Notes: generated from the sequence alone by a model not told the origin. A DNA stretch of 64,000 nucleotides from Psammoneis japonica (GCA_008632985.1 QPGO01000085.1:124001-188000), one strand, 5' to 3'; counted from the first letter of the stretch, positions 25,191 to 62,049 are shown. Numbers and translations are program-made.

Positions 25191-25199
25191 AAAAAATGC

Positions 25200-28100
25200 A
25201 CCTCACTTGCTCCCAATCTGAAGGGTTCCCGAGTGAGGTCGGAGGATAGGTTGAAGTAGACGCGGGTGCTTCAAGGTGCCATGAACGAAAATTGAACAAC
25301 ATTCTGTTGAAGACCAACACCGTGCCAAAAGATGTGAAGAATCCTGCATTGGTTCCAAACCCACCAGCACAAAGGAATTGGTGCAAGTGGATGCAAAACA
25401 TAAGAACAGCATGGATGAGAACAATTGGAATGACTGGACAATCACAATGTCCCAGAATTCAGCAAAACAACATGAAAACTTTGCCAAATGGGAACAAGCA
25501 GTGAAAACTCACCAGACAGTCCAATCTTTTGCAGGGGGGTTTAACTGTCTTTGCTGACATTGTCACTCTGTTGATCCACTCTGTCAATCCACCTTGTTTG
25601 CATGGCCCAAAGTTGCACAGTTGATGCCAGCCCCAGGGACTCAACTTCCAACAGGCTGCTGGTCAGAACTGCTGACTCTGATGGTGATGAAGAGAAATCT
25701 CACTGATGAGTGTGCATCAGAAGAAGCCTTTTCAGTGGGGAGTGTTCCTGTCATTGATGACACAGTGAGCCCTCAAGACTTTGGCAGAATTGGAATCTGA
25801 TGTGCATGCTGAGTCTTCACGGCTCACACTGAGAATGGGCCAGAATGAGCAACATGTGTGTGGCACGTGTGGATGTCTGCATGCTGAGTGCAGCTGCCAA
25901 AACCATCAAGAGAAAAAAAAATTCACTGATGACACAAAATGGGCATTGCTGGCCTCATTTTTGTGGGCTTTTCCAAGCCCTTGCAGCAAAGAGATGGGCA
26001 CTGTGGGGGCTCAACTTGGTTGGTTGAGCACCAATTTAACCACCAGTGAAGTTGAAGCCGTCAAGGAAGCTCAAGACAAAAAATGTCCAGGGGGTGGTGG
26101 AACCACTTGGGGGCCCTCTGCTGCTGGCTGAAAGTGCAGCCCTTGTGACATCCCCCCAATGATGCCCCAATGGCCATTCAACAGAGAGCGGTGCTCTGGC
26201 CCAAGACTCTGTTTGGTGCTGGGTGCTTCATGGCATGGCCTGAAAGAACCGCCACACCATTGCTGTGCAATGTGCGGCATGGAGGCTGAGCAGTTGTGAT
26301 GAGCCTTGAGACTCAAGGTGTTGTGTGGCACAGTGTGTTGAAGACCCAGTCTGAGGCTCAAGCCTGCAGCTCTTCTGTGGAACATGGGGCAAATTCTGGT
26401 GCTCTCACTGCCTTCAGGAGAGATCAAGGACAGCTGCATCTAGCTTGCAGGAAAGAACCCATCAGTCAGAGACAATGTTTGCATCTGTGGGGTTGAACAT
26501 GTGGAGATGTTGAGAGAATGGAGCCACCAGTCCTGTGTCCTTCTTGATTGAGCCAGCAGCAAGCAAGGGTGCAGAAAATTCACACAACAGAGTGCGGACA
26601 TGGCTTCTTCACCAGGTGTGCACAGTGTGTCTGACAGAGGTGATTTCAACATTCAATGAGCTGGCAGGAACCTTCTTTGTGCAACCCTGGATGAAAACCA
26701 GTGTGGAGAGAAAGGACATGATGGGTTGTGGAAAGGAAACTGGGCACATGTTTTGGGGCTCATCAAGAATGGAGAGGGTCTGCCAAAGACGTGTGAGCAG
26801 GTGGACAAGGTGTGGAAGATGACACTGTCTTCCCAGACAGAACATCAGGAAGACTTTCCTGTTTGAGTGGGGGCTCTGTTTTAAGAGGTGGTCATCAACA
26901 AATGCCTCTTGCATGGCCTCCTCCCCCTGGGATCCTAGAAGCAAGCTGTGTGTCTCCCATGAATTGCAGCGAATCTCCTGCAGAACACAACTTGATGAGA
27001 GGCATGATGTGGCAGCAGGGTGGAAGCTCCATTTGACTGCCACAGTGACAAATCACAGGACATTGGCTTGTGCACAGTTGGTTGTTTGTCCATGTCCTTG
27101 TCACCACACATGTGTGCCTTTGTGATGCCACAGGAAGGAGGGAGTGTTGCCATGAGGCTGTGTGTTGGACCAGTCATTGTGGGATTAGCTCCAGACTCCA
27201 GAACCCAGAGGCTGGGGTGGATGAAGATGAGGTTACCACACACAGAGTGCACCAGCACTGGCACTGCAAATGGTGCCATCACTTCAGTTTTCATTGCCTT
27301 GGAAAGTCAAATTGTCTGGGAAAGGACCTGCAATCACCATCCTGCACTCACAAGTTCTTGAGTGGGGCTTCCAAGACTGCTGACATGGACAAGATCAAGA
27401 GGACATGTGTGGAACTTCAGAAGGAAGTTCACACAGACCCAGAGTGGACTGATTGGCCAATCAGTTTTGTGGAGAGCACTCCCACAATGCATTGGTTGTG
27501 ACTTCCTCCCCTCTCACTTCTGAACTCACCTTTCATTGTCAGATGGTCATGCAGCTGCTGTCAGGCTCAAGTCCTGCATGTGTGATGTGTTGCTGCTGCT
27601 CCTTCCTTGTTGGGACACATGTGTGCAAACACAGCTGGTGGCAGCACTCATCTGATTTGGATCTTGTTGAGACTGGGGGTCTGTGCCACTTTTGTTCATC
27701 ATCAGAACAAGAAATGACACATGTCTGCCATCATCAAGCTCAGCCATGACCTTTTTCCTGCAAAAACAAGGTTGTTCACAGGCACAATCCTGTCTGACCA
27801 TGTCAGTGCTTGTCTGGCAAGCAACCCAATGGAGTGCCATGTGGTCACATTGCCAAGTGTCCCTTGAGTGAGCCATGAGCCCTGGCACAGAAAGTTCCTT
27901 CAAGCATTGTGACAAACTTCATGCCGCACCTGCTCTTTGTGATTTCCTCTGCCTTGCACTCAAAGCTTGGCTCCATGACAAAATGGTGAGCAGGTTTGGT
28001 TTTGACCCCATGCTGTGCAATTTGTGGAGAGCACAAAGTGCTGTTCTTGGACAGCATTGGATGTTCTGTGGGGGCATGCCCAAGCTCTGGGACACAGCCC

Positions 28101-28560
28101 AAACCCTTTGAATGCATGAAACTGGAGCCCTCCAAAAGCACCAAGTTGGCTCCTTCATTTGGAAATCATGGCAGGAGTTGTGGGAGTTGCATGAAAAACA
28201 AGTGTGTGGCCTCAAAGTTGTCTCAAGGAAGTCTTCTCAATGTCACTTTGTCAAGGCTGAACTCATGGCTGTGCACAACAAGCACCAAGACTGTCTGGTT
28301 GAGGACATCAATGTGATTTTGGACTCAGCAGAGGAATGCCACAATGTGCTCACTCTGCCACATGGTGAAAATGCAGAGCTGGGTCTCTGTGGTCAAGCCT
28401 TGTCTCAGATGAGCTCCAGCTCCAGGTGGGACCTTGCACTGCTGAGCTGTGACACCAACAGTTTTTCGGATCATGCCGCATGTCACTCGTGTGCATTTCT
28501 GCATGACTTTGGCAGAATTTTGCATCATTTTGCAGTGCAATCATTGGGCAATCCATTCAA
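25200..28560 (+). mobile_element. Heavily mutated non-LTR retrotransposon (LINE) remnant: RT, possible RNase H, C-terminal Cys/His region
   Basis: FTDDT (RT xxDD motif) followed by a TTGG(A)L..EKC-like stretch, then KLSHDLFP...EPWHRKFL-like remnants. Near-total loss of TpA and CpG. Ends are approximate. Confidence 0.5.
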
Positions 28561-31279
28561 CAACTTTTGATGTTTTTTCTTCTGTGCCATTGTCAAGGGG
28601 GGTCATCCCTGTGTTTGTCCTGGAATCACTGTTGCATTGTTTGAACAAGGTTGTTTGCACCAGCATTCATTTTTGAGTGCAAAAATTGTTCACATTCACA
28701 CCCAATTGTGCATGAAAATAAGAACATCAGGCAACGTGATCAAAGCATGACAATGACAGCAATCTTGACATTTCTTCAAAATGCAGTGGTCCATCTTCAA
28801 ACTTGTACATCCATGGGCTGGAACGCATCCTCAACAAAAGCATCTTGTCAGCTGCTGTTTCTGTTGGGGGCACCTGCATCAGGTGACACCAGGCCAACTC
28901 TGGCTGATCTTTTCCCTTCTTCCACCACACATCAGTGCACTGGAAATGCGGGTCAACCTGCACTGGCTTTGCCAGTCAATGCTGGTGTGGCAGCACTTTA
29001 AACTGGGTTTGTGATTTCTGAAATTGCGCTTGTTGCATGATGAGTTGGGCTCTCAAATGACATGACTGTGGATGGCAAGGCATTGGATGCAGGACTCAGA
29101 TGGATCCATTGCAGCAGTCACCCAGCCCTGTGGTGAACTGTCATGGCTGAGACAGACCCCTGATGGAATCATCTGTGCACCTCAGGGTTGTGGAGAAGGC
29201 TGGTGGGAATGCTGTGGAACCCAGCCACTCTGACCCCAGCACACCCACTGTGGATGGGTCCTTGTTGAGCACAGAGGCCAAATGAGTGAAAGACCCCACT
29301 GACAGCAATCTTTCATGCTGTGCGGTCATTGTTGACAAATGCGCAGAAATTGTGCAGACCAGCACCAAGAAAAGCATTGGACTGTCTGTCCATCCACCCT
29401 CAGTGAATTGCAATTCTGCAAAAAATGGACTTGACTGCAAACTGATCAGGTGCATTTTGGAACAACACATTTGCAGAAATGCATCTGTCAGTTGGCAGTC
29501 AAGTCCTTTTTTGCACAAGTTTTGAGAAGACAACAGCTTTGGCACAAAAATGTGTAGATTCTGCTGACGTCCTCAAGTGATTTGTGCATTTTGCATTGTG
29601 GGTCATTTTCAAAAGATTCCTGCTGCAATTGGACAGCTCAAGATGTGAGCAGGACCTTCAAGCAGAGCAGAGGTTGGTTGGATGAAGATGCATGTGATGA
29701 TTGAATTTGGAGCAGAGACAACAGGGCATGACTGGGGTTGTGGCAAGTGTTTTCAGCACACTGGATCCACACAAAGGTGGGCACAATGTTCACATTGTTC
29801 TGTGACCACCAATTGTCCATTTTGGACACTCAACACACACATCTTGCAGACTGGTTGTTGGTGGAGAGACAGTTTGCACATGCTCCTCATGGTGGTCCTC
29901 ACATGGAAGACTTGCTTCTTGGGACTCCTCAAAACAAAGCTGTGGCTGCTTTGCTGGAGAGCTGGCAAGTGCACACTGTCTCTTGGGAAAATGGAGGATG
30001 TGTCAGAGGAACTGGGGCATCAATCATGCTGCAAGAGACTTTTCCACACAGGTGGGGTGTGCTGTTCAACTTCTTGTGGAAAGAGTGAGGCAGCCCTTTG
30101 CACGTGACAGGGTTTCAGCTGTGCAAGTGAGTTTGTGCATTGCAGCAGCTTGGTTTTTGCATGCAGTCAGCTCTTTGCACATGATTGCACAACACAGCTT
30201 TTGCTTTCAAGCCATGCAGCTCACAAGAACAATGCCAACATCAATTGTCAACAACATTTTCTGTTTTGGCACATGTGGTGGTCTCTGCATGGAGACTCTT
30301 TTGCCACATGGATGACAGTGATTGGTGCGCTGTTTTGTCCATCAACATTTTTGTTCACACCCTCTCAATGTGCTTGTTTGCCACCAGTCAACATGCCACA
30401 CTTTTCCATGCAAGCACCAGCAGGACTGTCCTGTGCAAGAATTTGGCATTGTGCCAGCCAGCCTCCTTGGGCACTTTGGAACATTCAGCAGTTGTGCCAT
30501 GATGATGTAGATGCCACAGGTGTCAGAGGGGATGCTCCGTCATGCCTTCATTTGGGAGTGACATCACCATCACAGTGGCTCCTCTCTTTGCATTTTCACT
30601 CCCATTGGCCATGCATTTGCACTGCACAATTCTGCATCCAAGATGTTCTCACATTTCTTGTCTCATTGTTTCTTTGAATTCTCAGGACAGAGTGCCTTTG
30701 CATTTTGTCATTTCTTCCAAGTGGCGCTGGCTGTTTTCCACATGGATGGCTGCAATCCAGGCATTGACTGCAGCAATTGTTTTTCTTTTGTTCCTCCAAG
30801 ACCCATGTCAAGACTTGTCAGTGCTTTCCTCATGTCAAGTTCCTTGCAATTTGGTCATCAACAACACACAACAGCATTGTTTGAAGCTGTGCTTCTCCTC
30901 CTGTGCCTGCTGGCGATTTCCAAGTCTTTCTTTTCAGACAAGATGCACCCTCACTTCAAGATGACTTCTGGATCAAGAAATGGCTCTTAAGCCCTTGCAC
31001 CTTTCAGGTTGAATTTTGACAAAGCCCGCATTCATTTGAAAACACACACCCTTTCTTTGCAGTGTTTTTTTTTGGCATCTTTCCAGCTGGGTGTTTGTCC
31101 ACTCTGCTCGACCACAGCAGCAGCCATGCTTGGCTCTCTGCACACAACAAGCACTCAGCTCATTCCTGTCTAGACTTAGAATGCTTCCACAGTCATTGTC
31201 CCTGCCACATCTTTGATGTGCTGGGGAGCGTGGGTCCACAACATTTTGGTTTTTTCAGTCAACACACATCACACACACA
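28560..31279. repeat. Degenerate repeat-derived DNA, family not identifiable
   Basis: TpA- and CpG-depleted, CA/TG-rich composition; no credible ORF. Confidence 0.5.
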
Positions 31280-31284
31280 CTGAC

Positions 31285-31560
31285 TGACAGAAATTGAAGG
31301 CAAATGGCAAGAATTCAAACAACAACTCCTTGCTGCTGTCTAAACAGCAGATGAGTCTCCGCTCAGAGACCGTCACAGGAGCCGAGAGACGTGCAAGTCG
31401 GCACAATCGGGCCACTGTTGTCATTCTTGTGAGCCTTGTGGCTCGAAAGCAAACTACATCGCGCGTGAACGCGCGGAACTAAAGCACACAAAACTGTGCG
31501 CGGCAAACTAAACAGCGCGCGACACTTCGCGCGCATCCAAATCCTGTTCAAATCCTGTCA
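31285..31560 (-). repeat. 3' LTR of the copia element (mutated copy)
   Basis: Aligns without gaps to 37887-38162 with 11 substitutions. Confidence 0.95.
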
Positions 31561-34230
31561 CTCCCCAGTTTGCTTGAGGAGCTACAGAAACAGATTCGAC
31601 TTCGGATGGAATGAAGTTCCAGAACATGAGGGGGCGGAGGAGGTCCCAGATTTGGGAGTAACCCCAATGCTTGCTGAGAATGTCAGCAGGGTTGCGGGAG
31701 CCTTCGATGAAGTGGAACTCAAGGCAACCAGAGGCAATTGCCTCACGCACACGGTGGAACGACAGTGCGGTGTGTCGCTTGTGTAACTTGGAGTGCGGGA
31801 TGGTGGCACTGTCTACAACCGACTTGTTGTCACCGAACATGTGACTAACGTTACGGATCGGGACACCAAGGCAGCGCAGGGTGATGCGCAGGTCGACAAT
31901 CTGCTCAACACAATTCCTTGCGGCAACAAATTCAGATCCGTAGGTTGCAGTTTCCACGGTGGCTTGTTTCTTGGAGAACCAATCAGCCGGGAATTTGTTG
32001 AGGAAGTGGAGCATTCCCATGACAGAGCGTCCGGTGAGCATGCAATGGTGCAAGTTTGCATCGACGTAGTGGGTGGTAGTGACGAACTTGCCAAGGGGCG
32101 GTGGAGCGTCCTTCGGGATCATCTCTTCTGCTTCACCACACACGGAATGCATCCATTCATAGGCCGGAGCAGGGAGATCCGAACAGTCAGGCTCTTCCGT
32201 GCGAACGCGGAGAGCACCGTGTCGCATCTTGGAGAGGTGCCCACACACGCGTTTGGCACGATCCAAGTGGCCTTGACGGGGCGCAGCTCGGAAGCTAGAG
32301 AGTGACATGACAGCCGTGGTGATGTCAATTCGACCAAGGGACACTGCCCATTGGAGAGAACCAACAAGAGACTGGAACTTGTGAATGCCATCGGGTCCCA
32401 GCAGTTCGGAAGTGTCCAGTTCGGGGTGGTCACCCTTCTCTAGAGGTGACAGGGCGTTGGTGGCAGGTTTCTCCCCAAACAGTCGGGCGCAGCTGTCGAC
32501 CATGCGCTCGATGTACTTGCGCGGAGACAGGCACAAGGTTCCGTCGGGGTCCCGGGAAAAGTTGCAACCCAGATGGAACTCAATGGGTCCCGCACCCTTG
32601 AGCTTGAACTTGTGCTTTTCCGTGAGAGTATCGACGAAAGATTGGGGGTCCTTCATGGCAATGGCGAGGTCATCCACATAAACGGCAATGCATTCACAGT
32701 GGTCGCCGTTCCTGCGCATCCAAATGTCGGGTTCGGCGCGGCAGGGGAAGAAGCCTTCAGCTCGCAGGCAGTCGGCGAAGCGCTCGTGCCAGCGGAGACC
32801 GGAGCTGCGCAGTCCATACAGTGCCTTGTGGATGACAAGGATGTGTCCTTCGAGTTTGCCAAATTCGGGTCCAGCTACAATGTAAAGCTTCTCCTTGGTG
32901 GTGGCTTCAAGGCAGGCATTGCCAATGTCGGTGGCCCATGTCTCCAGCTCGTTGAGTTCGGCCAGGAAAATCATCAGCCGAAGGCCACGGAGGGAGACTA
33001 CTCCGGAGTAGACACTGTCAACAGGTGCGTCCGTGAGGTGCCCGTTGGCTGCGAGTCGTGCCTTGTGGCGACCGTCGTGTTTCACGTCGTGCACCAGGTG
33101 CACTCGGATCTTCTTGTGTCCCGCAGGAGGAGTGGAAGACTTGAAGGGCCCGCAGTCATGGAAGACTTCGTATTCGTCGAGTTGGTCCATCTCGAGATTA
33201 GTTGCGTCTCCCCACTTGCGGTTGCCGTTGCGTTCGTCCAGTGACATGGCGTGTTTGCAGTTCCAGGGAACTTCGCATCCGCACTTGTAGCGAGGTGCAG
33301 TGCGGAAGGAGCGAAGCTTGGCTTGGTTGGCCATGCGAAATAGCTTCTTTTGGCACCTCGCGACAGTGCGGAACCGCTTCCAGCCATCCGTGTCAAGGAG
33401 TCCGTTCTCTCGTGCATGGATGGCACAGGTGACGGGGTCATCCTTGGCGATGATGGCAAGAGGCTCGGACGTGATCTCCCCACTTTCCCATTCAAGCATG
33501 ATGTTGTAGCTTGAGCCTTTCCAGGTTGGGTCGTGAGGCTTCAGAGGTCCTTCGTGTGATGCGATGCGTCGAAATTTCCAAATGGTGGTGTCTTCGTCTT
33601 CTTGCTCAATGTGATTCATGATGTCATTGCAGGCAAGGACTTCCTCGTATTCGTCATTGTTGACAGAGCAGACGAACTTAGTGAGCTCGGGATTGCCGTT
33701 CACTTTCCATTCGTGGTCTTCGATGGCCTTGACGATGCGAGCTCTGTGGCGTTGTCCATCCTCTTGTGGCTGCATGAGGAAGGTACGTCCAATGATGTCT
33801 TGCGGATCGAAAACTGGCATCTTGGGTGTCCTGATCTCCCCATCAGGAGAATCGACGGGGTTGTCGTCATGGCGAGATTTGATGATGGGTTCAGGTGGCT
33901 CCCCATCAGGAGGATCAAGACGCAGATTTCGAACGGCAGGATCGGGGGTAGCGGAGCGAACGTTGGACCGGTGGAGGATCTTCTGAGTCTCGTCAGATGG
34001 GATCTTGAAGGTCATCTGGTGGCCGACGTGCTCAGCAATGCCAACAAAGCGTCCACGCAACTCACGGGATTCGGACGGCCAATCGGAGTCATCGAGGTGG
34101 AAGTGCACTGGTTCCCACCAGTGAAAGCGAAGCAATGGGCTGATGTCCGGGGTGGATCCAGTGAGAGTCTCGAGGGGCGTGCGCCAGTGGAGACGTGGGG
34201 ACGCTGTGTGGTTGAGCATGAAGCACACGC
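31508..34230 (-). pseudogene. pol: Copia pol remainder: integrase C-terminus, reverse transcriptase, RNase H
   Basis: Recognisable RT/RH motifs with many Tyr->Cys/His replacements. Joined out of frame to the upstream ORF. Confidence 0.9.
31561..31570 (-). other. Polypurine tract of the copia element
   Basis: AACTGGGGAG on the minus strand immediately before the 3' LTR. Confidence 0.7.
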
Positions 34231-36947
34231 ATCTGATCCTCGAGTGTGTTGACAAACTCTTTGTCCGTCTCAGTGCCGTAGACATCGGTGACGGTAGACT
34301 CGGTGCCAACAAACAGTTGGGCGCTGGTGCAACCGGAGTCGACGGCCGGGGTGTCGGCGCAAACGGTGTCAGTGGCGATGGGCTCGTTGCGGCGGTGCAC
34401 ATTAAGGGCGGGGTTGGGTGATTTGCAGGCCTTGCGAAGGTGTGCACCGGCGGGCATGCGGGCGCACTGCGTGGTGCAGTCAAAATTGCGACGGACCGCA
34501 TCGACAGGTGGGAAGCCAAAGTGAGGCCGAAGAGACTCGAAGGGGGGGTCCTTGGGCTGTACAGTGCGCTCCGGAGGTGGAACGTCATCGCCATTGGGGT
34601 CAATCGCACGCAGATGACACTCGTAGAACACGTCGTCGTTCGGAATGAGGTGATCATCGAGGGCGGATGCGTGATCGGCAGACAAGGAAGCGGACAAGAT
34701 GGTCTCGTTGACAATGACACGGTGACGGCAGTTGCCGTGTTCGTCAAATGGGTTGGCAGTGGGATCGTCCTGCAGGTCAGAGATCGCGTCGCACCACTGG
34801 TCGTCGTCAGTGACAGAGTGATCGAGGACGGAAGGGTCCCATGTGTCATCACCGGTGAGGATGACATGGGGCAGTGTGTCCCATTCGGCGTCAGTGTAAG
34901 GTCGCATGGCAACATGAGGCAGGCCAGCCTTGATGTCAATGGGGATGACACAGCCATCAGGAGTGGCAATGCGTTGCAAGCCGTTGGGCACCCTGACAGA
35001 GCGATCGTTGACATCCTGTTTGCACCATTCGAGCTGGCCGCAGGAATGGATGGTCTTGCCCTTTCCCGTGTGTGCGCACTGATGGAGGATGGCGATGACG
35101 GGACCACGCTGGGTCTCAATGACGGCACCAGCGGTGACAATGGGGATGTCCACCAATTGATGATCGTCAATGCCCTGAACGTCGACTTGGCGAGAGGTGC
35201 GTGCAATGACGCGAACGTCGTCGCCAGCAATGCCGCCGTTGGCCCCACGATTGACTAGAGCGCCAGTGCGTGTGGAGCGATGAGCAGAGGCAGAGCAAAT
35301 GACATTGTGGTTGTTGACGCGGCGGCAAGTGCGGCCGTTAAGTTCCATGTCATCTGCAGGAGCTGGTGGGGCAGAGGAAGCAGCGGATGGCCCCGGTCGA
35401 CTGGCATTGGGGGCTTGGTTAGGTGACAACAGACGTTGCAGATCACCGGGTGGCAGTGGCTTGCGCTTGGTGAGGTGCGCCAGGATGGGATTGTCCGAAG
35501 TGGCGTCCACATGTGTGGCGGAGTCACCACAGTCAGCAGGAGTCGTGTTGGACAAGTTGACATCACCGTCACTCCCAAGGTGTTGGTCGTGAAGGTTGGC
35601 CGTAACAGACTCATGGCAGTTGCTGGCTCGCGGGGTGCGGTTAGGCGGACGAGAGTGCTCAAGGATGATCGCCTTGGAGGAATCGGGCAACGAATCCCAG
35701 AGCCGTTGGTGGTTGGGAGGGAGACGTCTCCATTGGACACCGGTGAGGCTGGGACCGCGGGTGTGGGCAGCATTGGCTTGAAGGACGTCAACGTCGCTGT
35801 CAATGTCGTAGAACACATCGTCGGACGGTTCCTCGGAGCAGACGTCGTGTGCGTGTGTGGCGCGTCGGGGAGCTCGAGGTGTCGTCTTGGGTTGAAACGT
35901 GCTGTCGCACTGAGCTGCCGCAGAGAGGAGCAAGCCACAGCATTGATCGCATGTGAGGCTCTTGCCACTCTGCGTGCGATGCTGATCAGCTTGGTTCTTG
36001 ACAGCACGGAGTTCCTCGACAGGGTGCACGGCATTCTCGAGCATGACGCGCTTCTGTCCCTCAGAGAAGTGGTCACTGGCGGGGATGAGTGCCTCGCACT
36101 TGCGCAACTGATCTTGCCAATGAAGGATGAACCCGTGGGTCGGACCTTTCCAAGTGCCATCACCAAGACGTGTGGTGGTGAGGTGCGTGAGCAGGGTGGA
36201 GGACTCGACAGATGCACGGGTGGAGGCAAGCGCGCACTCAGACAAGGAGCGGCAGACGGTCTGTGTGTCAGAAGACCCCACATTTTTGCGAATGAGAGCC
36301 TTGCCCTTGTCGGTGAGAAGGATGCGTTCGAAGACGGTGAACATGCACTTTTGCTGTTCAGCAAAGAGCAGTTTGTCTTCGGGGCTGGTCGGTTTGTACG
36401 ACGAGTCTAGAATGCACTCGACGTCTTGGGCACGGGCTTGTGCCACAAGTGAGGTGTGCCAAGTGTGCCACTGCTTGTCGGATTTGAGAGCCGTGAAAGC
36501 GGTGGGATCACGCTTGATGCCTCGCTTGAAGTCTCGCACCGGGTCGCGTGCCTTGGTCGGGTTGGTGACATGTGGAGGTGCAAGGGGTGAGCTGCCGATG
36601 GACACAGAGGACATGCAGTCCGGGCTGAGGCGGTGGGCAAGGAACTCGTCATGCGTGAACAAAGAGGAGTCGTTGGCAACGTCAAGGCCTTTGTGTGCTT
36701 TGACAATGCACAGGCTGACCAGTGCTGCTGACATGTTCTTACAACCACGGGGCAAAGGGATCACATCAGTGCCGTTGTCGCACTCAAGCGAGTCGATTTG
36801 GGACGGCATGAACGTGAACAGTTCCTGATGCGAGTCCGTGCCGTCTTGGGCCAAAGCCAAACGAAGAGGACTCCCAGCACCTTGGGCAAGCACAGTTCCA
36901 ACCACGTGCTCGAAACCATCGGTTTGTTGCTGACGAGTGAGAACCAT
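34231..36947 (-). pseudogene. gag: Copia gag-protease-integrase N-terminal ORF
   Basis: FKRGIKRD gag motif. Protease motif reads ALVNRGANGG, where catalytic D->N arises by CpG->CpA. Integrase EPIATDTV...EFVNTLED is then truncated. Confidence 0.85.
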
Positions 36948-37869
36948 GGCAGACAAAAGTGGTGTCAGTGCAATCAATTCTGGTTGGGAAGCGAAGGTGG
37001 ACTCGAAACTTGGGTGAGAATGGACTTGACTTGAAATGGACTTGACTTGAAATCTTGAACTGTCTTAAAATCAGAAGTCGCCGGGCTTTGTTATCCCGTT
37101 CGTTGTTGAGTGCTAAACTTCCTGTCCGGTCCGCAGAGTTGTGCCGGCACGTCCGAACCCGCAGCCAGCGGTGCTTTGGGTTGCTCACGAGCGGAGCAGC
37201 GGGTTGCAAACCCCTGCAGGTAAGCTGACCAGAGGTGGACAAGACCCCTGAACCGTTCTTATTTTGTGTCGGTTGGATTTCCCGATCAGGCTGGCCAGTT
37301 GACGCAGGCGTCAGGCGCTGTGGACGAACAAACAAACGCGGGAAAGCACCCTCGCCCCAACGCAGGCTGCAGTCACGGCTGCTTGCTCTCACAGTCGTCC
37401 TCGTGGACCTAGTAGAACTGTAGAGCACCAGTAGTCCGGGGTAGATCAGGTACAATGGACTCGGTGTGCTTGTAGAGTGGTGGCAAAACCGTGGTCCGAA
37501 GGGTGGGTACAGGTTCTTGGCCGTGAAGATATGTATATATATATATGTCTACAGCGATGAAGATCCTTGAATATGTAGGGTTCTTGACCGTTAACCGATG
37601 AATAGGTATATCAAGGGATGAGGATCAAGGATAGACTTGGATATGACCGTTGAATGTATGTCTTCAGCGATCGAAGGTAGTATAATCAATCCAGATATCC
37701 AGCGGTAAGGAGACTTGACGGTGACGTTAACTTCCTGCCGATGCCCTGGTATTGGATGCGCGTAGACTTGCCGATGTATGTAGAATATATACGGAGGTCC
37801 ACGTAGAATTGAAATAGCGTCGTTGGTAAATCAACGACGACGATGGCGGTTGCTCAATGGGTTGACAAT

Positions 37870-37886
37870 GAGCAAGACTGTTAATC
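37870..37886 (-). other. Putative primer-binding site complementary to a tRNA-Asn anticodon arm
   Basis: No TGG after the 5' LTR. Plus strand reads GAGCAAGACTGTTAATC, i.e. a CT-GTT-AA anticodon loop with GA/TC stem. Confidence 0.45.
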
Positions 37887-38162
37887 TGACAGAAATTGAA
37901 GGCAAATGGCAAGAATTCAAACAATAACTCCTTACTGCTGTCTAAATAGCAGATGAGTCTCCGCTCAGAGACCGTTACAGGAGCCGAGAGACGTGTAAGT
38001 CGGTATAATCGGGCTACTGTTGTTATTCTTGTGAGCCTTGTGGCTCGAAAGCAAACTACATCGCGCGTGAACGCGCGGAACTAAAGCACACAAAACTGTG
38101 CGCGGCAAACTAAACAGCGCGCGATACTTCGCTCGCATCCAAATCCTGTTCAAATCCTGTCA
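37887..38162 (-). repeat. 5' LTR of the copia element (TpA-retaining copy)
   Basis: 276 bp, TG...CA, followed by TSD CTGAC. Confidence 0.95.
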
Positions 38163-38163
38163 C

Positions 38164-40600
38164 TGACAAACATCTGAGATGGGGAGTTCACTCCCTTGTG
38201 TTGGACAGACTGGCACAGACAGACTGGAGAGATCCGATGATCTCTCCTTTGCTCACTTTCTTTCTTCTCTGGCACATGATTGACACATCTGTCCCCCAGA
38301 TGTTGTTAGATCATCCAGACACCAGCAGTTTGCAAGGTTGTGAGCAGCAGTGTGCTGTTCATTTTCCTCAAAACAGCCACATTTTTCAACGCTTGTTGTG
38401 TGACTTGGGAGCGTTTCTCTGTTGAAATCATCATCTTTGTCACAGCTGTTTGTCTCTCTCAATTTGTGATCACCATGACCACCACAGAACACATGCCAGC
38501 ATTCCATGCAGGCACCAGTTTTTTTTTTCACACAACTGTGGTCAACAAGAACACAAAGGCCATTGATTTGACCAAATCAAGTCAACACTGGTTGAGCTCC
38601 AACCACACGATTGCTTGCCCGATGCCTGTCATCACCTGAGTGCCCTTGGTTCAGACAAGACACCTGCTCCTGAAGATCTTCTGCATGAATTTGCTCCTCA
38701 AGGCCTCAAGAACAATGCCACAGCAACTCTCCATCACAAGGTTGTTTAGGATCTTGTCATTCCCCAAGCTGCGCTGATCAAAGATCTCACACAGATTGGA
38801 CCAATCATGGAAAGGCTTCTCTTTTTGTGGCTCTGCCCCTCAAGGTTGTCCTGTTCATCTGAGCCATGCCAATCTTCAGAAGGCTGTGACCAAGGCAATC
38901 TTGGGTGATCAGGACGCTGTGACAACAAATGTTGAGACCCTCTGTCTCCATTTTTGTCCTGGTTTTGAGCATTGTGATTGTTGGGATGACATGTCTGATG
39001 CTCCACATCCAAAATCCTCTTCCAAGGCCTCAGCCACTCATTGGCCTGGTCCAAAACAGCACAAGCAAGCTGTGGCCAATGTGTTGAAGAGTGTTTCTCC
39101 TGTTGAAAAACATTCAACCATGACTCCACCTCCCCAAGGTTTGCAGCATCCAAGTTGGACCCAGTTGCCAGGTCTGCTGCTTGTGGCTCTGATGCCTCTG
39201 TTGCATCTTAAGTTGATGATGCACTTGCCATGGGTGCCAAGATGGACCCCAGGAGTGCTGTTCCAAAGAGTGTCAAGTCTGGCATGTCTGTTGTGGTGCC
39301 TGAAGTGGGCCATCTGCAGTGATTGGTGGTGGTTCCCTTGAATTTCCTGCCAATTTGGTGGTGCTTCCCACCAGCTTTCACACCCCACTCAAGACCCCAA
39401 AGTTTTTTCTTTCTTGCCATTCTGTTGTTCCACACAAAGATGGTCATGTTTGCCCCCTTGATGGGCTGCCCTCTGTTGCCAAGGTCACACCTGAGCTGCT
39501 TGCCACCCACAAGCCACTGTCATTGTCTGATGCTTGTGGATGCTGCCAGTGCTCTGTTGGTCATTAAGTTGATTTGCACTTGGATTTTGGGTTCAGCAGT
39601 CATCAATTTTGGGTGTGCAATGCTGCCATTCCTCATGTTGTCCAAACACAAGAGAGGGCAACCAAGTCTCATCACCTCCCAACATGTCACCTCTTTCCTT
39701 CACTGTCAGGACCATTGTGGCATTGAATGGTGTTTTTCCTGGCACTCCTGATCTGTTGACCATCCCTGATGATGACCCTGCACTTTGCAGCCAGGGAAGG
39801 GATTCCTGCAGCACAGAGGAAGCACACAAGGCCATTGAGAATTCAACCTTCAACCAAGACACCTCACTTGACAACCACAATTTGAATGCTGTGCAATGCT
39901 CACCTGTGATGCATTGCTGTTTTTTCAACATTGAACAACTTTGTGATGCATTTTGTTTGTCCAATGTGTTTTTCAGGGGTGACACAAAATGTTGCAAAAG
40001 CTTTGGTTTGTCAGGTGGATTGCTGTTGCTTCATTTTCACTGCATCATCCACCGTGGTGGATTTCCATTTTTTGGCCCCATCTCTCCTGATGAGTTTTGC
40101 AGTTGATTGTTCATGAATTGGCAAAATTGTTCTTTGGTGCATGACTCGATTTGTCCACCAGACAATTTGTTGTTGGGAGCTGCCTTTGACTTTTTTTGTT
40201 GACCAAAGACTGCTGCACTGACCAAGGCTGTGGGTTGGACACTTCATTCCCAATGTGCTTGTTGGTTTGTGGGACATTGTTGTTGTTGATTGTTGTTGTG
40301 TTTGTGGACCAAGTCTTGGGCATTTCTTTTGGCCCTCTCTTTGTTCTGCTGCTCTGGCCCTCTGTTCTTTCGGATGCTCTCTTTCTTTCTTGATGATGAA
40401 CATCATTGCATTGCTCATCAGAGGAGGGTGACAGACATCCAGGGTGGGGAGTGCACTCCCTTGCATTGGACAGACTGGCATGGACAGACTGGAGAGATCT
40501 GATGATCTCTCCTTTGCTCACTTTCTTTCTTTTCCAGCAGCACATGAGATCACCATCTGTCCCAGATGTCACCAGATTGTCCCAACACCAGCAGTCTGCA
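38164..40600. mobile_element. Old degenerate element bounded by a ~170-bp direct repeat (38164-38335 and 40429-40600); LTR or split-direct-repeat retroelement remnant
   Basis: Both copies share tgaca.acatc...ttggacagactggca..gacagactggagagatc.gatgatctctcctttgctcactttctttc. Interior is TpA- and CpG-depleted. Confidence 0.6.
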
Positions 40601-41356
40601 ACACACCTTGGCACCATCAACAAGCTGTCTTTGTCTGGAGGATGAAAGAGCCATGTCTGTTCTGGAGCACCACACCAATCAACACCCAAGACACAGCACA
40701 CAATTTTGCAAAGCTTGAGAAAGAAGCTGACAAACAAAAACTCTGGTGCACTGCGAACAACCCACGCCCTGGCTGATGGAAATTGACACAGACACAATAA
40801 TCACTGAGACAGTTGGGCAAAGAAAACTTGATCAGCAATGAGCACAGTGTTGGACTCTAGGTGGAGTCGGAGCACCCAAAGAGCATGTCAGTCGAAAAAG
40901 CACTTCTCCTCACTTTGTGCGCTGCAAGAGACAATGCACCGCCAGAAGCAGTGACTTTGACAAGGAGGTCATACAATGACAAGTTGAGCAAGGTTAGAGA
41001 AAAATCATCAAGACCCACATTTTGCTAACCATAACCTTGCAAATCAGTGTCGAACAAGGATTGACATGAAGAGGCAAAAAAAGCAGGTCGACGCTTTTGG
41101 ATGCGAAGTGATGACTGACAGACGGGACATGTGGGCGAAATCGCATCGCCAAAACGTTCATTGTCAGCTTCATGCACGAAGGTGCTGTTTATTTTATGGA
41201 TTTATTTTCATCTCTGTTGAAAGCCACACTGGGCGGGTTCGCCATTCGCCACATTTTTTGTTTTCCATCGCCACTCGCTTTCCGCCTGCCACTTGCCACC
41301 GTGTTGATCCATCGTTCATTTCTTCCTTGAAACGTTGCAAGTAAAAGCCTTCTACG

Positions 41357-46400: not shown

Positions 46401-47310
46401 CACTCTGATGATGTGCTGTGGGTTTGTGCAGGCTTGCATGGTGCACTCATCTGTGCCCTGTGCCTGACATTTTGGAGAGGCTGTTGCAAGCTGAAAAACA
46501 AAAAGTGCCCCCCTGCGAGTGCCCCTTTGTGGCAGTGTCAAACATCAAGATTGCTGGAGCAGGTGCCTGGAGAATCAAAGCATTTGGAAATCAAAAGTGT
46601 GCAAAGAGGAGGAGGGTGCATTTGCCTTTGCTTTTGCTGGTGCAAAGGAGGGCAGGATGATCAACAAAGTGTGCAAAAGAAAGATGAGTGGTGCCAAGCT
46701 GGAGATGGCTGGCAACATGAGCATGTGCTCTTCTGTGCTCCAGCCAGCTGAACTGTGTTGCAATGAGCAGTGAAAACAACTCATTTTTGGGGTGGACAGC
46801 ATTGTGCATCACAAAAAAGTTGTTCTTGATTGTGTTGCTGCCTTGAGCTCTGCTGGCAGTGGAGAGAGAGCAAGACATGGACCAAACAAAGCCAACCTGG
46901 CTTGTGCCCAATTGTTTGGTGGTCACTCACAAGTGCAAGAGCAAGCAATGCTGCAACAGCTGTGCCCATGACTTGGGTGAGCAACGATGCTGCTGCAGTT
47001 TGATGAGTGCCTTGCGAGCGACGAGCTGGGCACTTGGCACTGCTTGCTGTTGATGTGGTGTTCTCACCCTCCTTTGCACTGCTGCAGAAATTGGAAAGTC
47101 AACCAGTTGTCATCGTTGTCATTTTTTTGGTGTGTTGTGCTTTCTTCATGGAAAATGGGTGTCATCCATGCAGTCAATGCAGTCACATGATCAAGGCCTC
47201 ATGCAAATGCCACTGTGTGGTGGCCAACTTCCAACGTTGTGTGCACTGTTCCGAATGGAGAATCTGGTGCACTGGTGCACTGCGTGGACGGCTTCTAACA
47301 GTGCACTGCA
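43500..47310. repeat. Degenerate repeat-derived DNA, family not identifiable
   Basis: TpA- and CpG-depleted; only Cys/His-rich spurious ORFs. Confidence 0.5.
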
Positions 47311-47322
47311 GGTGCTGCAAAT

Positions 47323-49762: not shown

Positions 49763-50379
49763 ATGGAGACCTGGACATTTAAAAAACGGGGGACAGCGCA
49801 CAGGCGCACAGAAATCCACAAAATTCTGATTCAAAAAATCCAACCGTCACCTCGCTCCGTCCATGACCATCAGGTTGTTGCGTCCGTCTCATCCTGGTGG
49901 TCTGCATCATTGCTGTGTAAGACATCAGAACCCCATTTCATCCACCATGGGCACAAAAGCTGCCAATTGCTGTTGTGTCATGTTCTCGAGAAAGAAGGAA
50001 TGTCGGTTGATGGGTTGTGCACCATTTTGCAGCACAGAGCGACGGTGCACAGTGCGTGGTGGAGACGACTCGTTTATTTTGTGTTGATGCCAACTGGCTT
50101 GTCTCGGAAATGTCAATCATGTCAGTGGACCCACACCATCGGGAAGAGACAGCAGCGCAAGTGGCAACCATGTGCCTTGTTGCGTGCCAGCAGTTGTGGG
50201 TCTGCACTTGATCGACTGACACTTGATTTGTCTTTTGTTTGGAGTGCAACACCTTGTCCCACGCATGAAGTGTGGAGTGGCCTTTGTTGAGAATTCGGAT
50301 GTTGCCGTGGGTTGGAAAACTGTGTTTCTAAAGAATCTTCTGTGTCGACAGTTGTGATTTTGTGAAAAACCGATGGCAC

Positions 50380-61990: not shown

Positions 61991-62049
61991 CACATCCACT
62001 CTCTTGATCACAGACCAGTGGTTGCTTGGTGGTGGTGACAGTTGATTCA

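What the first reader, a model, noticed from the sequence alone, without database searches (positions are those of the whole stretch)
31285..38162. LTR pair records the process: 10 of 11 differences are TpA->CpA/TpG and no CpG is lost
Seen: the 5' LTR has 14 TpA, and 10 read CA or TG in the 3' LTR (aataa>aacaa, ttac>ttgc, aatag>aacag, gtta>gtca, gtaa>gcaa, ggtata>ggcaca [two], gcta>gcca, gtta>gtca, gata>gaca). The only other difference is one T/G, and the many CpGs are intact in both. Known: LTRs are identical at insertion, so the changes arose in chromosomal DNA after integration rather than by ADAR-type editing of the RNA genome. Inference: TpA conversion is much faster than CpG decay here. 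LTR-divergence dating would overestimate age roughly tenfold (11 vs 1 difference in 276 bp).
Basis: partly seen in the sequence, partly recalled or inferred. Interest (0 to 1): 0.88.

Follow-up and report, generated by a model that had tools for sequence, protein, structure and literature searches.

The report
TpA-erasing hypermutation of diatom transposons
A dead copia retrotransposon in a diatom genome, and the transposon-rich DNA around it, have had their TA dinucleotides systematically rewritten to TG or CA, a targeted mutation process so far reported only once, in an unrelated alga.

Summary
The two 276-bp LTRs (31285-31560, 37887-38162) differ at 11 sites, and 10 are TA in the 5' LTR versus CA/TG in the 3' LTR (element on the minus strand; TSD CTGAC). 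Against 12 outgroup polyproteins, 28 of 43 conserved Tyr codons (TAY) read Cys (TGY) or His (CAY). Arg CGN, His, Gln and Trp codons are intact, and no CA/TG>TA change is seen, so this is not RIP. Host genes are untouched. The element lies inside multi-kb tracts almost free of both TpA and CpG, with CA/TG doubled and total YpR unchanged. One of 62 related metagenome loci shows the same Tyr erosion. A 2026 preprint reports de novo TpA>TpG/CpA hypermutation of integrated viral DNA in Bigelowiella natans, so the kind is known. The diatom host, the transposon targets, the saturation, the TAY context preference and the LTR record are new. Open points: all 10 LTR changes are in one LTR (p=0.002), and the 5' LTR plus about 480 bp of leader are spared. 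This could be position-dependent targeting, gene conversion, or an assembly mosaic. The enzyme is unknown; a DNA adenine deaminase is the leading guess.

The parts
31280..31284 (.). Target-site duplication CTGAC (left)
   Evidence: Read directly; identical to 38163-38167.
31285..31560 (-). 3' LTR (276 bp), TpA-poor: TA 4, o/e 0.26
   Evidence: It carries CA/TG at 10 sites where the 5' LTR has TA.
31508..35254 (-). ORF B. From about 34228 downward it encodes the RT/RNase H part of the polyprotein (RVT_2 at aa 710-921).
   Evidence: It is 71% identical to P0001 residues 972-1848. 11 of 26 conserved Tyr are kept.
34226..34231 (-). Junction of an internal deletion (about 76 aa of the relatives' polyprotein missing) with a frameshift. 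It also separates the fully TA-converted zone from the roughly 58%-converted zone.
   Evidence: ORF A ends and ORF B begins here; P0001 residues 895-972 are skipped. table 7: contigs of X2-X4 carry 58-181 extra letters before 34226 and about 101-102 behind 34231. One search gives Tyr states on either side.
34089..37064 (-). ORF A, the N-terminal (gag to integrase-side) part of the polyprotein. The aligned Met is at about 36947. 0 of 17 conserved Tyr are kept.
   Evidence: No Pfam hit, but none is found for that part of the intact relative P0001 either.
37410..38162 (-). Unconverted TpA-rich block: the 5' LTR plus about 480 bp of adjacent leader
   Evidence: 55 TpA in 37410-38125 versus 8 in 36000-37409; the most sensitive RTAY contexts are abundant here (23 of 56 in 37285-38162).
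37887..38162 (-). 5' LTR (276 bp), TpA-normal: TA 14, o/e 0.75
38163..38167 (.). Target-site duplication CTGAC (right)
25401..31279 (.). Left flanking tract nearly devoid of TpA and CpG (0-7 per kb each), with CA and TG about 110-130 per kb each
   Evidence: An X1 read-contig matches 31000-31277 with 0 substitutions, so the composition is present in the reads.
38168..40800 (.). Right flanking TpA/CpG-free tract. It contains an old LTR-like direct repeat pair (38164-38335 and 40429-40601).
   Evidence: four adjacent CA-versus-TG double mismatches and one CG/TG difference in about 108 aligned bp.
43601..47000 (.). Third TpA/CpG-free tract
47001..53500 (.). TpA-free zone with intermediate CpG (TA 3-16 per kb, CG 27-47 per kb), built of TIR-bounded units (47321-47378/49707-49764 and 49768-49823/52481-52537)
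60601..64000 (.). TpA-free tract with low to intermediate CpG; it runs off the window end

Best explanation
The feature is a 6.9-kb Ty1/copia-type LTR retrotransposon of a diatom, on the minus strand, with an intact 5-bp target-site duplication. It is dead: it has an internal deletion with a frameshift, and most conserved tyrosines are replaced. It has been hit by a hypermutation process that converts TpA to TpG or CpA (A:T>G:C at TpA only) and acts on transposon DNA while sparing host genes. In old transposon-rich tracts around the element the process has run to saturation. Together with slower CpG decay, it leaves complex sequence with almost no TA or CG and twice the usual CA/TG. In the young element it has removed nearly all TpA from about 34.3-37.0 kb and about 60-70% from 31.3-34.2 kb, including 10 of 14 TpA in the 3' LTR. 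It has removed none from the 5' LTR and the adjacent leader. SHOWN: the direction, the TpA specificity, the confinement to element and tracts, the excess over CpG loss, a 5'-TAY-3' context preference, and same-strand coordination of 9 of the 10 LTR changes. INFERRED: that it acts on chromosomal DNA after integration (my estimate about 0.65 for the 10 LTR changes specifically). INFERRED: that the chemistry is enzymatic adenine deamination (A>I>G) on one exposed DNA strand at a time by a TadA/ADAT-like deaminase, as proposed for Bigelowiella natans (about 0.4). INFERRED: that the sparing of the 5' end reflects position within the transcription unit or a chromatin domain (about 0.35).
For: Polarity: 1804 residues were aligned to 12 outgroup polyproteins (60-71% identical). 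747 columns are conserved in at least 10 of 12, and the window is identical at 659. At the 43 conserved Tyr columns the window has Y 11, C 21, H 7, F 4. Tyr changed 32 of 43 versus 56 of 704 for all other residues, Fisher p=1e-23. The 88 mismatches classify as TA>TG 26, TA>CA 10, CG>CA 7, CG>TG 2, other single steps 21, multi-step or ambiguous 22, and no CA>TA or TG>TA.
Host control: zeta-carotene desaturase keeps 12 of 12 conserved Tyr (60 of the 120 relatives were used). Host paralogs A and B show TA>CA/TG 13 versus the reverse 9, with ts:tv 1.26, although B lies between tracts.
Clade control: none of 120 related proteins shows Tyr>Cys erosion (minimum Tyr retention 0.74, median 0.96).
Replication: 1 of 62 related metagenome loci (L037) has TA o/e 0.02, Tyr 1 of 24 (His 11, Cys 6) and Arg 33 of 36. 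The other 61 keep at least 71% of Tyr.
Tracts: genes have TA 39.5, CG 54.2, CA 72.7, TG 65.1 per kb (YpR 231.5, GC 0.472). Tracts have 2.4, 3.9, 111.9, 122.3 per kb (YpR 240.5, GC 0.480). This is the mass balance expected from in-situ transitions.
Independent conversion in copies: the tract repeat pair has 4 CA-versus-TG double mismatches. At conserved Tyr codons other genomic copies read TAY where the window reads CAY or TGY, and the reverse (sites 31843, 31872/3, 32239, 32818, 33010, 33288, interpreted).
Context: surviving TpA in saturated tracts relative to genes are RTAY 0.008, TAY on one strand 0.034, YTAR 0.178, chi-square p=2e-7. In the LTR, read on the sense strand, TAY is converted 6 of 6 and TAR 4 of 8.
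Strand: 9 of 10 LTR changes are A>G on the element's sense strand.
Precedent (bioRxiv 10.64898/2026.01.13.699255; Results and Discussion read): in mutation-accumulation lines, 230 of 231 mutations in two integrated viral regions are A>G or T>C, all of these at TpA. The rate is about 1000 times background. It occurred in only 11 of 15 lines. TpA-depleted, CpA+TpG-enriched clusters are enriched for RT and DDE domains.
Against: All 10 LTR changes are in the 3' LTR and none in the 5' LTR (p=0.002). The adjacent leader keeps 41 TpA in 37262-37881. A uniform post-insertion process does not predict this.
The family LTR consensus could not be obtained. One search listed only 40 of 766 variant sites and is capped at one call. 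Only one of the ten sites is informative (col 129/130: CA in the 3' LTR, TA in the 5' LTR, TG in X2-X4 contigs).
An assembly mosaic of this very abundant family is not excluded, because no spanning read was seen.
The origin of the TA/CG-free tracts is not shown. 67 tract ORFs gave no Pfam family above its curated cut-off. tblastn with 5 copia polyproteins gave only 3 weak hits outside the element, E at least 0.029. R/Y-alphabet searches found no homology between tracts and the element. That the tracts once had normal composition therefore rests on mass balance and the double mismatches.
The TAY rule is not strict. Tyr>His cases are preceded by a purine in 4 and a pyrimidine in 3, and 3 LTR sites changed on the sense strand although only the other strand had TAY.
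L037 has the opposite strand bias (His 11, Cys 6), and the B. natans NCLDV region is described as transcriptionally silent. Both argue against a simple transcription-coupled model.
No deaminase gene could be sought because no genome is held.
Confidence: 0.8

Rival explanations
1. Recombination, gene conversion or assembly mosaic. The TpA-erasing process is real, but the two LTRs are unlike because the 5' roughly 750 bp (37410-38162) was replaced by sequence from a fresh, unconverted copy or cDNA, or because the assembler or polisher mixed copies. On this view the 10 differences measure divergence between two copies, not change since this insertion.
For: The 10:0 one-sidedness. The sharp step in TpA density at about 37410. 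A second step in Tyr conversion at the 34228 deletion junction, 0 of 17 versus 11 of 26, which gives the element a three-segment mosaic look. The family is extremely abundant and variable: 13784 contig pieces laid, summed depth 60,000-250,000 versus 79 in the flank, so donors are plentiful. cDNA-mediated conversion of resident elements is known for yeast Ty1 (recalled, not checked here).
Against: The matching 5-bp TSD shows both ends belong to one insertion. Contigs of a roughly 97%-identical copy in X2-X4 cover 37262-37881 with only 14-18 differences in total, although the window has 41 TpA there. The same runs show private TA>TG/CA changes in that copy's body. So sparing of the leader recurs in another converted copy, which favours systematic position-dependent sparing. 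Only 1 non-TA difference separates the LTRs.
Confidence: 0.3
2. RNA-level A-to-I editing (ADAR- or ADAT-like) of transposon transcripts, fixed through reverse transcription over many retrotransposition cycles.
For: Sense-strand A>G predominates in this element: 26 TA>TG versus 10 TA>CA at conserved columns, and 9 versus 1 in the LTR. A 5' U preference is typical of such enzymes, as stated in the preprint's Discussion.
Against: Both LTRs are copied from the same template, so RNA edits cannot make them differ. 10 of 36 coding changes and all the symmetric tract conversion need the other strand. TIR-bounded (DNA-type) units and non-coding tracts are converted too. L037 is biased to the opposite strand. 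The 3' neighbour preference is pyrimidine, whereas ADAR prefers 3' G (recalled). In B. natans the mutations arise de novo in a single-copy, transcriptionally silent integrated DNA.
Confidence: 0.08
3. Same signature but different chemistry. Thymine in TpA is modified (for example oxidised to 5-hydroxymethyl- or 5-formyl-uracil by a TET/JBP-type enzyme) in silenced DNA and mispairs with G, giving T>C. Alternatively, an over-active T:G mismatch repair resolves mismatches to C:G in this context.
For: The dinucleotide is palindromic, so 'A in 5'-TAY' cannot be told from 'T in 5'-RTA' on the other strand. The tracts also lose CpG, as expected of chemically marked silent chromatin. Thymine modification at TpA is known in other protists (recalled, not checked here).
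Against: There is no direct evidence here. The only experimental precedent proposes adenine deamination and found an ADAT2-like candidate.
Confidence: 0.12
4. Classical RIP-like or cytosine-deaminase mutation CpA>TpA in the 5' LTR (the opposite direction).
For: CpA>TpA is the textbook repeat-induced signature, and the LTR alignment alone cannot give direction. Diatoms carry DNMT4 enzymes related to fungal RID (passages of PMC9998398 read).
Against: 0 of 88 polarised coding mismatches are CA>TA or TG>TA. There are no stop codons in 1852 codons. His is kept at 29 of 31, Gln 19 of 19, Trp 21 of 22. The element's TA o/e is 0.30-0.32, not enriched. The 3' LTR's TA o/e (0.26) matches the converted body, and the 5' LTR (0.75) matches normal DNA.
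Confidence: 0.03
5. Selection rather than mutation: avoidance of UpA and CpG in transcripts, or native codon usage.
For: UpA and CpG are jointly suppressed in many RNA viruses (recalled).
Against: The losses destroy conserved tyrosines across the polyprotein, including the reverse-transcriptase domain. The depletion is near-total in non-coding tracts. Host genes in the same window have ordinary TpA and CpG.
Confidence: 0.02

Closest known systems
TpA-targeted hypermutation of integrated viral DNA in the chlorarachniophyte Bigelowiella natans (Mettrop et al., bioRxiv 10.64898/2026.01.13.699255, 2026)
   Same: Changes are exclusively A>G or T>C at TpA, giving TpG or CpA. The process is confined to foreign or selfish DNA with host sequence spared. 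Its long-term footprint is TpA-depleted, CpA+TpG-enriched clusters that include RT and DDE coding sequences. It is non-uniform and episodic.
   Different: The host is a diatom (a stramenopile, not a rhizarian). The targets here are an LTR retrotransposon, TIR-bounded units and unannotatable tracts, not giant-virus or virophage inserts. The footprint is far more extreme: TA o/e is about 0.05 over kilobases, versus Rho 0.45 for their NCLDV region. Loss of CpG accompanies it in the oldest tracts; the preprint does not mention CpG (0 occurrences). Here there is a TAY context preference, same-strand coordination, and sparing of the 5' LTR and leader. Here the evidence is comparative, not de novo mutations.
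Repeat-induced point mutation (RIP) of fungi
   Same: It is a repeat- or transposon-directed, dinucleotide-specific transition mutator that inactivates elements and reshapes composition of whole tracts while sparing genes.
   Different: The direction and base are opposite. RIP makes CpA>TpA (C>T), raises TpA and lowers GC. Here TpA is destroyed and GC is unchanged. No stop codons are created.
5-methylcytosine deamination (CpG decay) of silenced transposons
   Same: It produces TG/CA from a palindromic YpR. It is also visible here: 9 CpG>CA/TG changes at conserved columns, at least 9 sites where nearly all other copies keep CG, and CpG-free old tracts.
   Different: It cannot remove TpA. Per site it is roughly 60-fold slower than the TpA loss in this element. 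It contributes none of the 10 LTR changes.
APOBEC3 and ADAR editing of retroelements in animals
   Same: A host deaminase mutates retroelement nucleic acid, with strand-coordinated clusters and nearest-neighbour preferences.
   Different: APOBEC gives G>A on the plus strand. ADAR acts on RNA, so both LTRs would receive the same change. Neither gives LTR-specific A>G at TpA, nor converts DNA transposons and surrounding DNA.
Diatom copia elements ('CoDi' groups of Phaeodactylum and Thalassiosira; name recalled, not checked here)
   Same: An RVT_2-type reverse transcriptase, a single polyprotein of about 1850-1900 aa in intact relatives, short LTRs and a 5-bp TSD.
   Different: The best relatives are only 71% identical, so this is a separate family. 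This copy is deleted, frameshifted and TpA-eroded.

Membership tests
Ty1/copia LTR retrotransposon | Copia-type reverse transcriptase (Pfam RVT_2) | tested here: met
   PF07727, E=6e-28, aa 710-921 of ORF 31508-35254(-).
Ty1/copia LTR retrotransposon | Direct long terminal repeats with TG...CA ends and a short target-site duplication | tested here: met
   276-bp LTRs reading TGACAG...CCTGTCA, with TSD CTGAC on both sides.
Ty1/copia LTR retrotransposon | Integrase encoded upstream of reverse transcriptase | tested here: inconclusive
   Pfam finds no integrase or gag model in ORF A, nor in the intact relative P0001. ORF A aligns to P0001 residues 1-895 at 44% identity.
B. natans-type TpA hypermutation | Mutations almost exclusively A>G or T>C | tested here: met
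   10 of 11 LTR differences. 36 of the 66 single-step polarised coding mismatches are TA>TG or TA>CA, and 4 more are other A>G changes.
B. natans-type TpA hypermutation | Mutated base lies in a TpA dinucleotide, giving TpG or CpA | tested here: met
   Tyr TAY>TGY 21 and >CAY 7; Leu CTA>CCA 2; Val GTA>GCA 1; Ile ATA>ATG 2.
B. natans-type TpA hypermutation | Confined to foreign or selfish DNA, with host genes spared | tested here: met
   ZDS Tyr 12 of 12; paralogs unbiased; genes have normal TA and CG.
B. natans-type TpA hypermutation | [quoted passage not shown] | tested here: met
   several tracts of 2.6-6.5 kb with TA 2.4-5.1 per kb and CA+TG 211-234 per kb, versus TA 39.5 and CA+TG 138 per kb in genes.
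B. natans-type TpA hypermutation | Arises de novo in chromosomal DNA during clonal growth, episodically | not testable with these tools
   This needs mutation-accumulation or lineage resequencing. The LTR pair and the repeat pair are indirect evidence only.
B. natans-type TpA hypermutation | ADAT2/TadA-like DNA adenine deaminase (proposed, unproven even in B. natans) | not testable with these tools
   No genome is held for this window. No deaminase domain was found among the 18 large host ORFs scanned.
Fungal RIP | C>T at CpA, producing TpA excess and premature stops in repeats | tested here: not met
   0 CA>TA or TG>TA among 88 polarised mismatches, and no stops. Element TA o/e is 0.30-0.32.
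ADAR-type RNA hyperediting fixed by retrotransposition | Edits are inherited identically by both LTRs, and only sense-strand A>G occurs | tested here: not met
   The LTRs differ at 10 such sites. 10 of 36 coding changes are on the other strand. Tracts are symmetric.

The most novel reading that the evidence does not exclude
Diatoms possess a genome-defence mutator that is the chemical mirror image of fungal RIP. It would be a natural DNA adenine base editor that deaminates A in 5'-TA(Y)-3' on one strand at a time, in bursts. It would be recruited to transposon chromatin in a position-dependent way that spares about 0.75 kb at the promoter end of an element but hits the sequence-identical 3' LTR. 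Together with CpG decay it would manufacture kilobase tracts free of both palindromic YpR dinucleotides. Its presence in a stramenopile and a rhizarian would make it an ancient SAR-wide system, and it would invalidate LTR-divergence dating in these lineages.
Probability: 0.35. Interest if true: 0.92.

Novelty: new member of a known kind. Interest (0 to 1): 0.78.

Why it matters
A transposon-directed A:T>G:C mutator at TpA was unknown until a single 2026 preprint on one chlorarachniophyte. Finding its footprint in a diatom, on retrotransposons and DNA-type elements, at saturation and with a second instance in metagenome data, suggests a widespread protist genome defence rather than a curiosity.

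It matters in several practical ways:
- LTR-divergence dating here would overestimate age about tenfold (11 versus 1 difference).
- Repeat finders and domain searches will miss TA/CG-free relics.
- Stop-poor tracts generate long spurious ORFs.
- Composition-based scans could now map such tracts.

It also points to a possible natural DNA adenine deaminase with a defined TAY context, which is of interest for base-editing enzymology.

The LTR pair adds something the mutation-accumulation study could not show. Two sequence-identical copies 6.6 kb apart are treated differently, so targeting depends on position, not on sequence alone.

Tried and rejected
- Whole-genome search for other copies: no genome is held.
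- Protein Atlas taxon lookup: not available. I used a homology search instead.
- Earlier notes of this scan: none for this genome or these words.
One of the ten LTR sites could be read (col 129/130), and it shows CA, TA and TG states.
- Origin of the tracts:
  - Pfam on 67 stop-to-stop ORFs of at least 110 aa gave only two sub-threshold, implausible hits.
  - tblastn with 5 copia polyproteins gave 3 weak hits outside the element, E at least 0.029.
  - Purine/pyrimidine-alphabet self-BLAST found host paralogs, one LTR-like pair and TIR pairs, but no tract-to-element homology.
- Leakage of the process into a host gene lying between tracts: none.
- Strict TAY rule tested on Tyr>His cases: not supported (4 purine versus 3 pyrimidine).
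- LTR pairs of related elements as replicates: most 'pairs' in metagenome contigs are 100%-identical terminal overlaps of 103-125 bp, probably assembly circularisation. L038, L048 and L049 are similar short terminal overlaps (124-147 bp) at 98.4-99.3% identity and were not classified. L020 and L032 are multi-kb self-overlaps. L029 is a 66-72% internal match. All of these were left out.
  - Only L001 and L059 were analysed as diverged pairs, and neither is TA-specific (2 of 20 and 2 of 16).
- Reverse-transcription-stage editing as the source of LTR asymmetry: rejected on the topology of strand transfers. My reasoning is that plus-strand strong-stop editing would mark the 5' LTR, and late minus-strand editing would give sense T>C in the 3' LTR; neither matches.
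- Literature searches found no diatom report. One search failed on term syntax and was not repeated.


Full report
OBSERVATION. Aligning 31285-31560 with 37887-38162 gives 276 ungapped columns with 11 differences. At nine sites the left copy has C and the right copy T, each before A. At one site the left has G and the right A, after T. The eleventh is G (left) versus T (right). Dinucleotide counts are TA 4, CA 28, TG 19, CG 21 (left) and TA 14, CA 19, TG 18, CG 20 (right). The long ORFs and an RVT_2 reverse-transcriptase domain lie on the minus strand. CTGAC flanks both ends, so the two LTRs belong to one insertion. The only correction is that the G/T difference costs the 5' LTR one CpG. The class bias is far beyond chance: P is 6e-8 to 4e-6 depending on the ts:tv assumed, and TA 10 of 14 versus CpG transitions 0 of 21 gives p=5e-6.

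HOST AND ELEMENT. No genome is held for the window. A host zeta-carotene desaturase gene is 86-90% identical to those named Cylindrotheca closterium, Pseudo-nitzschia multistriata and Seminavis robusta, so the host is a diatom. The element's closest relatives are metagenome-derived polyproteins of about 1850-1900 aa, at most 71% identical. The window copy is split at about 34228 by a deletion of roughly 76 aa with a frameshift. Read contigs from other copies carry extra sequence exactly there (loose ends at 34226 and 34231). Four coded DNA runs from one sample hold the element. Laying them at 80% likeness or more gave 13784 contig pieces in X1, and summed depths of 60,000-250,000 in the element against 79 in the left flank. 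Variant sites were overwhelmingly transitions: A>G 166, G>A 195, C>T 136, T>C 154, and 113 transversions in all. The family is therefore very abundant and diversified mainly by transitions.

DIRECTION. The LTR alignment cannot say whether TA was lost or gained, so I polarised with outgroups. I aligned 1804 residues of the window polyprotein to 12 relatives. 747 columns are conserved in at least 10 of 12, and the window agrees at 659. At the 43 conserved Tyr columns the window has Tyr 11, Cys 21 (all TGY), His 7 (all CAY) and Phe 4. Arg is kept at 49 of 52, with 47 still CGN. His is kept at 29 of 31, Gln 19 of 19, Trp 21 of 22, Cys 7 of 7. Tyr changed 32 of 43 against 56 of 704 for all other residues (Fisher p=1e-23). 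The 88 mismatches classify as TA>TG 26, TA>CA 10, CG>CA 7, CG>TG 2, 21 other single steps and 22 multi-step or ambiguous. None is CA>TA or TG>TA. TpA has been destroyed, not created. This is the opposite of RIP, and it ruins conserved residues, so it is mutation and not codon preference. Per site, Tyr TA has taken about 1.27 hits against 0.021 for Arg CpG, roughly 60-fold.

CONTROLS AND REPLICATION.
- The host ZDS gene keeps 12 of 12 conserved Tyr, using 60 of its 120 relatives.
- Three host paralogs (23.2-25.2, 41.2-43.3 and 55.4-56.7 kb) evolve with ts:tv 1.26 and no TA bias (13 versus 9), although the second lies between tracts.
- None of 120 related proteins shows Tyr>Cys erosion; minimum Tyr retention is 0.74 and the median is 0.96.
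- Of 62 related DNA loci fetched from metagenome contigs, 61 keep at least 71% of conserved Tyr.
- One locus, L037, has TA o/e 0.02, Tyr 1 of 24 (His 11, Cys 6) and Arg 33 of 36. This is an independent second case, with the opposite strand bias.
- The two truly diverged LTR pairs among those loci are not TA-specific. L001 has 2 of 20 differences of TA type. L059 has 2 of 16 in opposite directions, with 6 CpG-type.

THE SURROUNDINGS. Whole-window TpA o/e is 0.37, and this is not uniform. Gene-bearing stretches have TA 39.5, CG 54.2, CA 72.7, TG 65.1 per kb. Tracts at about 25.4-31.3, 38.2-40.8 and 43.6-47.0 kb have TA 2.4, CG 3.9, CA 111.9, TG 122.3 per kb. Total YpR is almost unchanged (231.5 versus 240.5) and so is GC (0.472 versus 0.480). 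That is the mass balance expected if TA and CG were converted in place to CA/TG by transitions. Zones at 47-53.5 and 60.6-64 kb have lost TpA but keep intermediate CpG, which again shows TpA loss running ahead of CpG loss. These zones contain units bounded by roughly 58-bp inverted repeats, so DNA-type elements are hit as well. A direct repeat pair inside the right-hand tract (38164-38335 and 40429-40601) differs by four adjacent CA-versus-TG double mismatches in about 108 bp. This is the mark of two copies independently resolving the same palindromic dinucleotide. An X1 read contig reproduces the left flank 31000-31277 without a substitution, so the odd composition is in the reads. The tracts' origin is otherwise unknown: no credible Pfam domain in 67 ORFs, and no homology to copia proteins or to the element even in a purine/pyrimidine alphabet.

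ANATOMY OF THE DAMAGE IN THE ELEMENT. Conversion is patchy. No conserved Tyr survives between 36782 and 34361 (0 of 17). Between 34280 and 31660, 11 of 26 survive. The 3' LTR has lost 10 of 14 TpA relative to the 5' LTR. From 37410 to 38125 there are 55 TpA, against 8 in 36000-37409. The spared block is rich in the contexts that vanish first elsewhere (RTAY 23 of 56 in 37285-38162), so it is truly unconverted rather than merely AT-rich. In saturated tracts, survival relative to genes is 0.008 for RTAY, 0.034 where one strand reads TAY, and 0.178 for YTAR (chi-square p=2e-7). This indicates a preferred 5'-TAY-3' target read on either strand. In the LTR, read on the element's sense strand, TAY sites are converted 6 of 6 and TAR 4 of 8. 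Three of the four survivors are TTAG, which lacks TAY on both strands. Nine of the ten LTR changes are A>G on that one strand, including three where only the opposite strand offered TAY. There is therefore real same-strand coordination beyond context. The rule is not strict: the Tyr>His cases show no purine preference (4 versus 3).

COPIES DIFFER FROM ONE ANOTHER AT THE SAME SITES. In the 40 variant sites that one search lists (726 were not shown), conserved Tyr codons are polymorphic among genomic copies. The window has CAC where 76% of other depth reads TAC (31843). It has CAC where 42% reads TAC (32239). It has TGC where about 36% reads CAC (31872/3). The window keeps TAY where 73% (32818), 55% (33288) and 17% (33010) of other depth reads CAY or TGY. 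At LTR column 129/130 the 3' LTR has CA, the 5' LTR has TA, and the X2-X4 contigs have TG. TA is the only state one step from both others. At least nine sites have CG in nearly all other copies and CA/TG in the window, so CpG decay occurs but is minor.

WHAT IS KNOWN. My searches found no report of such a process in diatoms. Passages of Hoguin et al. 2023 (PMC9998398) say only that diatom DNMT4 enzymes resemble fungal RID and that their function is unknown. The searches did find a 2026 preprint (10.64898/2026.01.13.699255). I read its abstract, Results and Discussion and ran a term search; I did not see its supplements. In mutation-accumulation lines of Bigelowiella natans, 231 of 302 nuclear mutations fall in two integrated viral regions. 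230 of those are A>G or T>C, and all of these lie at TpA. The rate is about 6e-7 per site per generation, and only 11 of 15 lines are affected. [quoted passage not shown] The authors propose an ADAT2-like DNA adenine deaminase. The words diatom, CpG, LTR and retrotransposon do not occur in the text. The window shows the same signature in a different lineage and on different targets, driven much further. Near-saturation of TpA can be reached while background substitutions in 276 bp remain well below one.

HOW IT MOST LIKELY WORKS. SHOWN: a TpA-specific A:T>G:C process, confined to transposon DNA, faster than CpG decay, with TAY preference and strand-coordinated action in the 3' LTR. INFERRED, about 0.65 for the LTR changes: it acts on integrated DNA.
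- The two LTRs of one insertion differ.
- DNA-type units and repeats resident in the tracts are converted.
- The source copy's 3' LTR must have been TpA-rich when transcribed, because it templated the present 5' LTR. This argues that the body was converted after insertion too.
INFERRED, about 0.4: the chemistry is adenine deamination on transiently single-stranded DNA by a TadA/ADAT-like enzyme. The native tRNA substrate of that family places U before the target A (recalled). Thymine oxidation or biased T:G repair gives the same footprint and cannot be excluded.

THE UNEXPLAINED PART. This is the 10:0 asymmetry (p=0.002) and the spared 5' block. Editing during reverse transcription does not fit the strand-transfer topology. 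Two readings remain.
- Position-dependent targeting. The 3' LTR lies inside the element's transcription unit or silent domain, while the 5' LTR and promoter-proximal leader do not. A roughly 97%-identical copy in runs X2-X4 also keeps its leader (14-18 differences over a stretch where the window has 41 TpA), while its body carries private conversions. Against a purely transcription-coupled version: L037's reversed strand bias, and the transcriptional silence of the B. natans target.
- Replacement of the 5' end by gene conversion from a fresh copy, or an assembly mosaic (about 0.3). This is favoured by the step-like segment boundaries at about 37410 and about 34228.

VERDICT. It is also much bigger than one LTR pair, because it exposes a TpA-erasing, transposon-directed hypermutation that has reshaped about 40% of this window. 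The kind was described once, in 2026, in another protist lineage, so I rate this a new member of a known kind. It brings new features: the diatom host, retro- and DNA-transposon targets, saturation with joint CpG loss, the TAY context, and positional asymmetry between identical LTRs.

Noticed in passing
window 25401-31279, 38168-40800, 43601-47000, 47001-53500, 60601-64000: Multi-kb tracts of complex sequence with almost no TpA and little or no CpG. They make up about 40% of the window and generate many long spurious ORFs, because TAA and TAG stops are absent.
   Followed up: yes
locus L037 (2766 bp, whole locus): A related copia fragment from a metagenome contig with TA o/e 0.02 and CG o/e 0.44. 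Conserved Tyr is kept at 1 of 24 (His 11, Cys 6). It shows the same erosion with the opposite strand bias.
   Followed up: partly
locus L001, 1-537 versus 7493-8029: The LTR pair of the closest relative differs at 20 sites. 17 are C/T on one strand, mostly outside TA and CG contexts. This is a different, unexplained strand-biased transition pattern, or possibly a metagenome assembly chimera.
   Followed up: no
window 38164-38335 and 40429-40601: An LTR-like direct repeat pair 2.3 kb apart, inside the tract. The copia element is inserted exactly at the first base or two of the left repeat. Both repeat types begin TGACA.
   Followed up: partly
window 47321-47378/49707-49764 and 49768-49823/52481-52537: Two adjacent units of about 2.4-2.8 kb, each bounded by roughly 58-bp terminal inverted repeats, in the TpA-free, CpG-intermediate zone. 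No protein domain was recognised.
   Followed up: partly
window 23182-25204, 41241-43343, 55453-56748: A three-member host gene family with no Pfam domain (ORFs 23286-25070, 41345-42916, 55270-57021, all on the plus strand). A and B are 86% identical, and each lies just upstream of a TpA/CpG-free tract.
   Followed up: partly
window 11726-13489 (-): An aldehyde dehydrogenase is split into two abutting ORFs at 12640/12641 (Pfam positions 9-156 and 156-432). This could be a short intron, a frameshift or an assembly indel.
   Followed up: no
window 2622-5684 (+), repeats at 3868-4857: A 1020-aa ORF with no Pfam hit contains 2.3 copies of a 432-bp tandem repeat at 79% identity.
   Followed up: no
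window 13627-14661 (-): A full-length bacterial-type periplasmic phosphonate-binding domain (PF12974, E=2e-38) is encoded in the diatom gene region.
   Followed up: no
window 52535-52768 and 54359-54523: Two sizeable palindromic (self-reverse-complementary in purine/pyrimidine space) segments of about 234 and 165 bp were seen in the R/Y self-comparison.
   Followed up: no
window 34089-37064 (-) and protein P0001: Pfam detects only RVT_2 in this copia clade. No gag, protease, integrase or RNase H model matches, even in the intact 1859-aa relative.
   Followed up: partly
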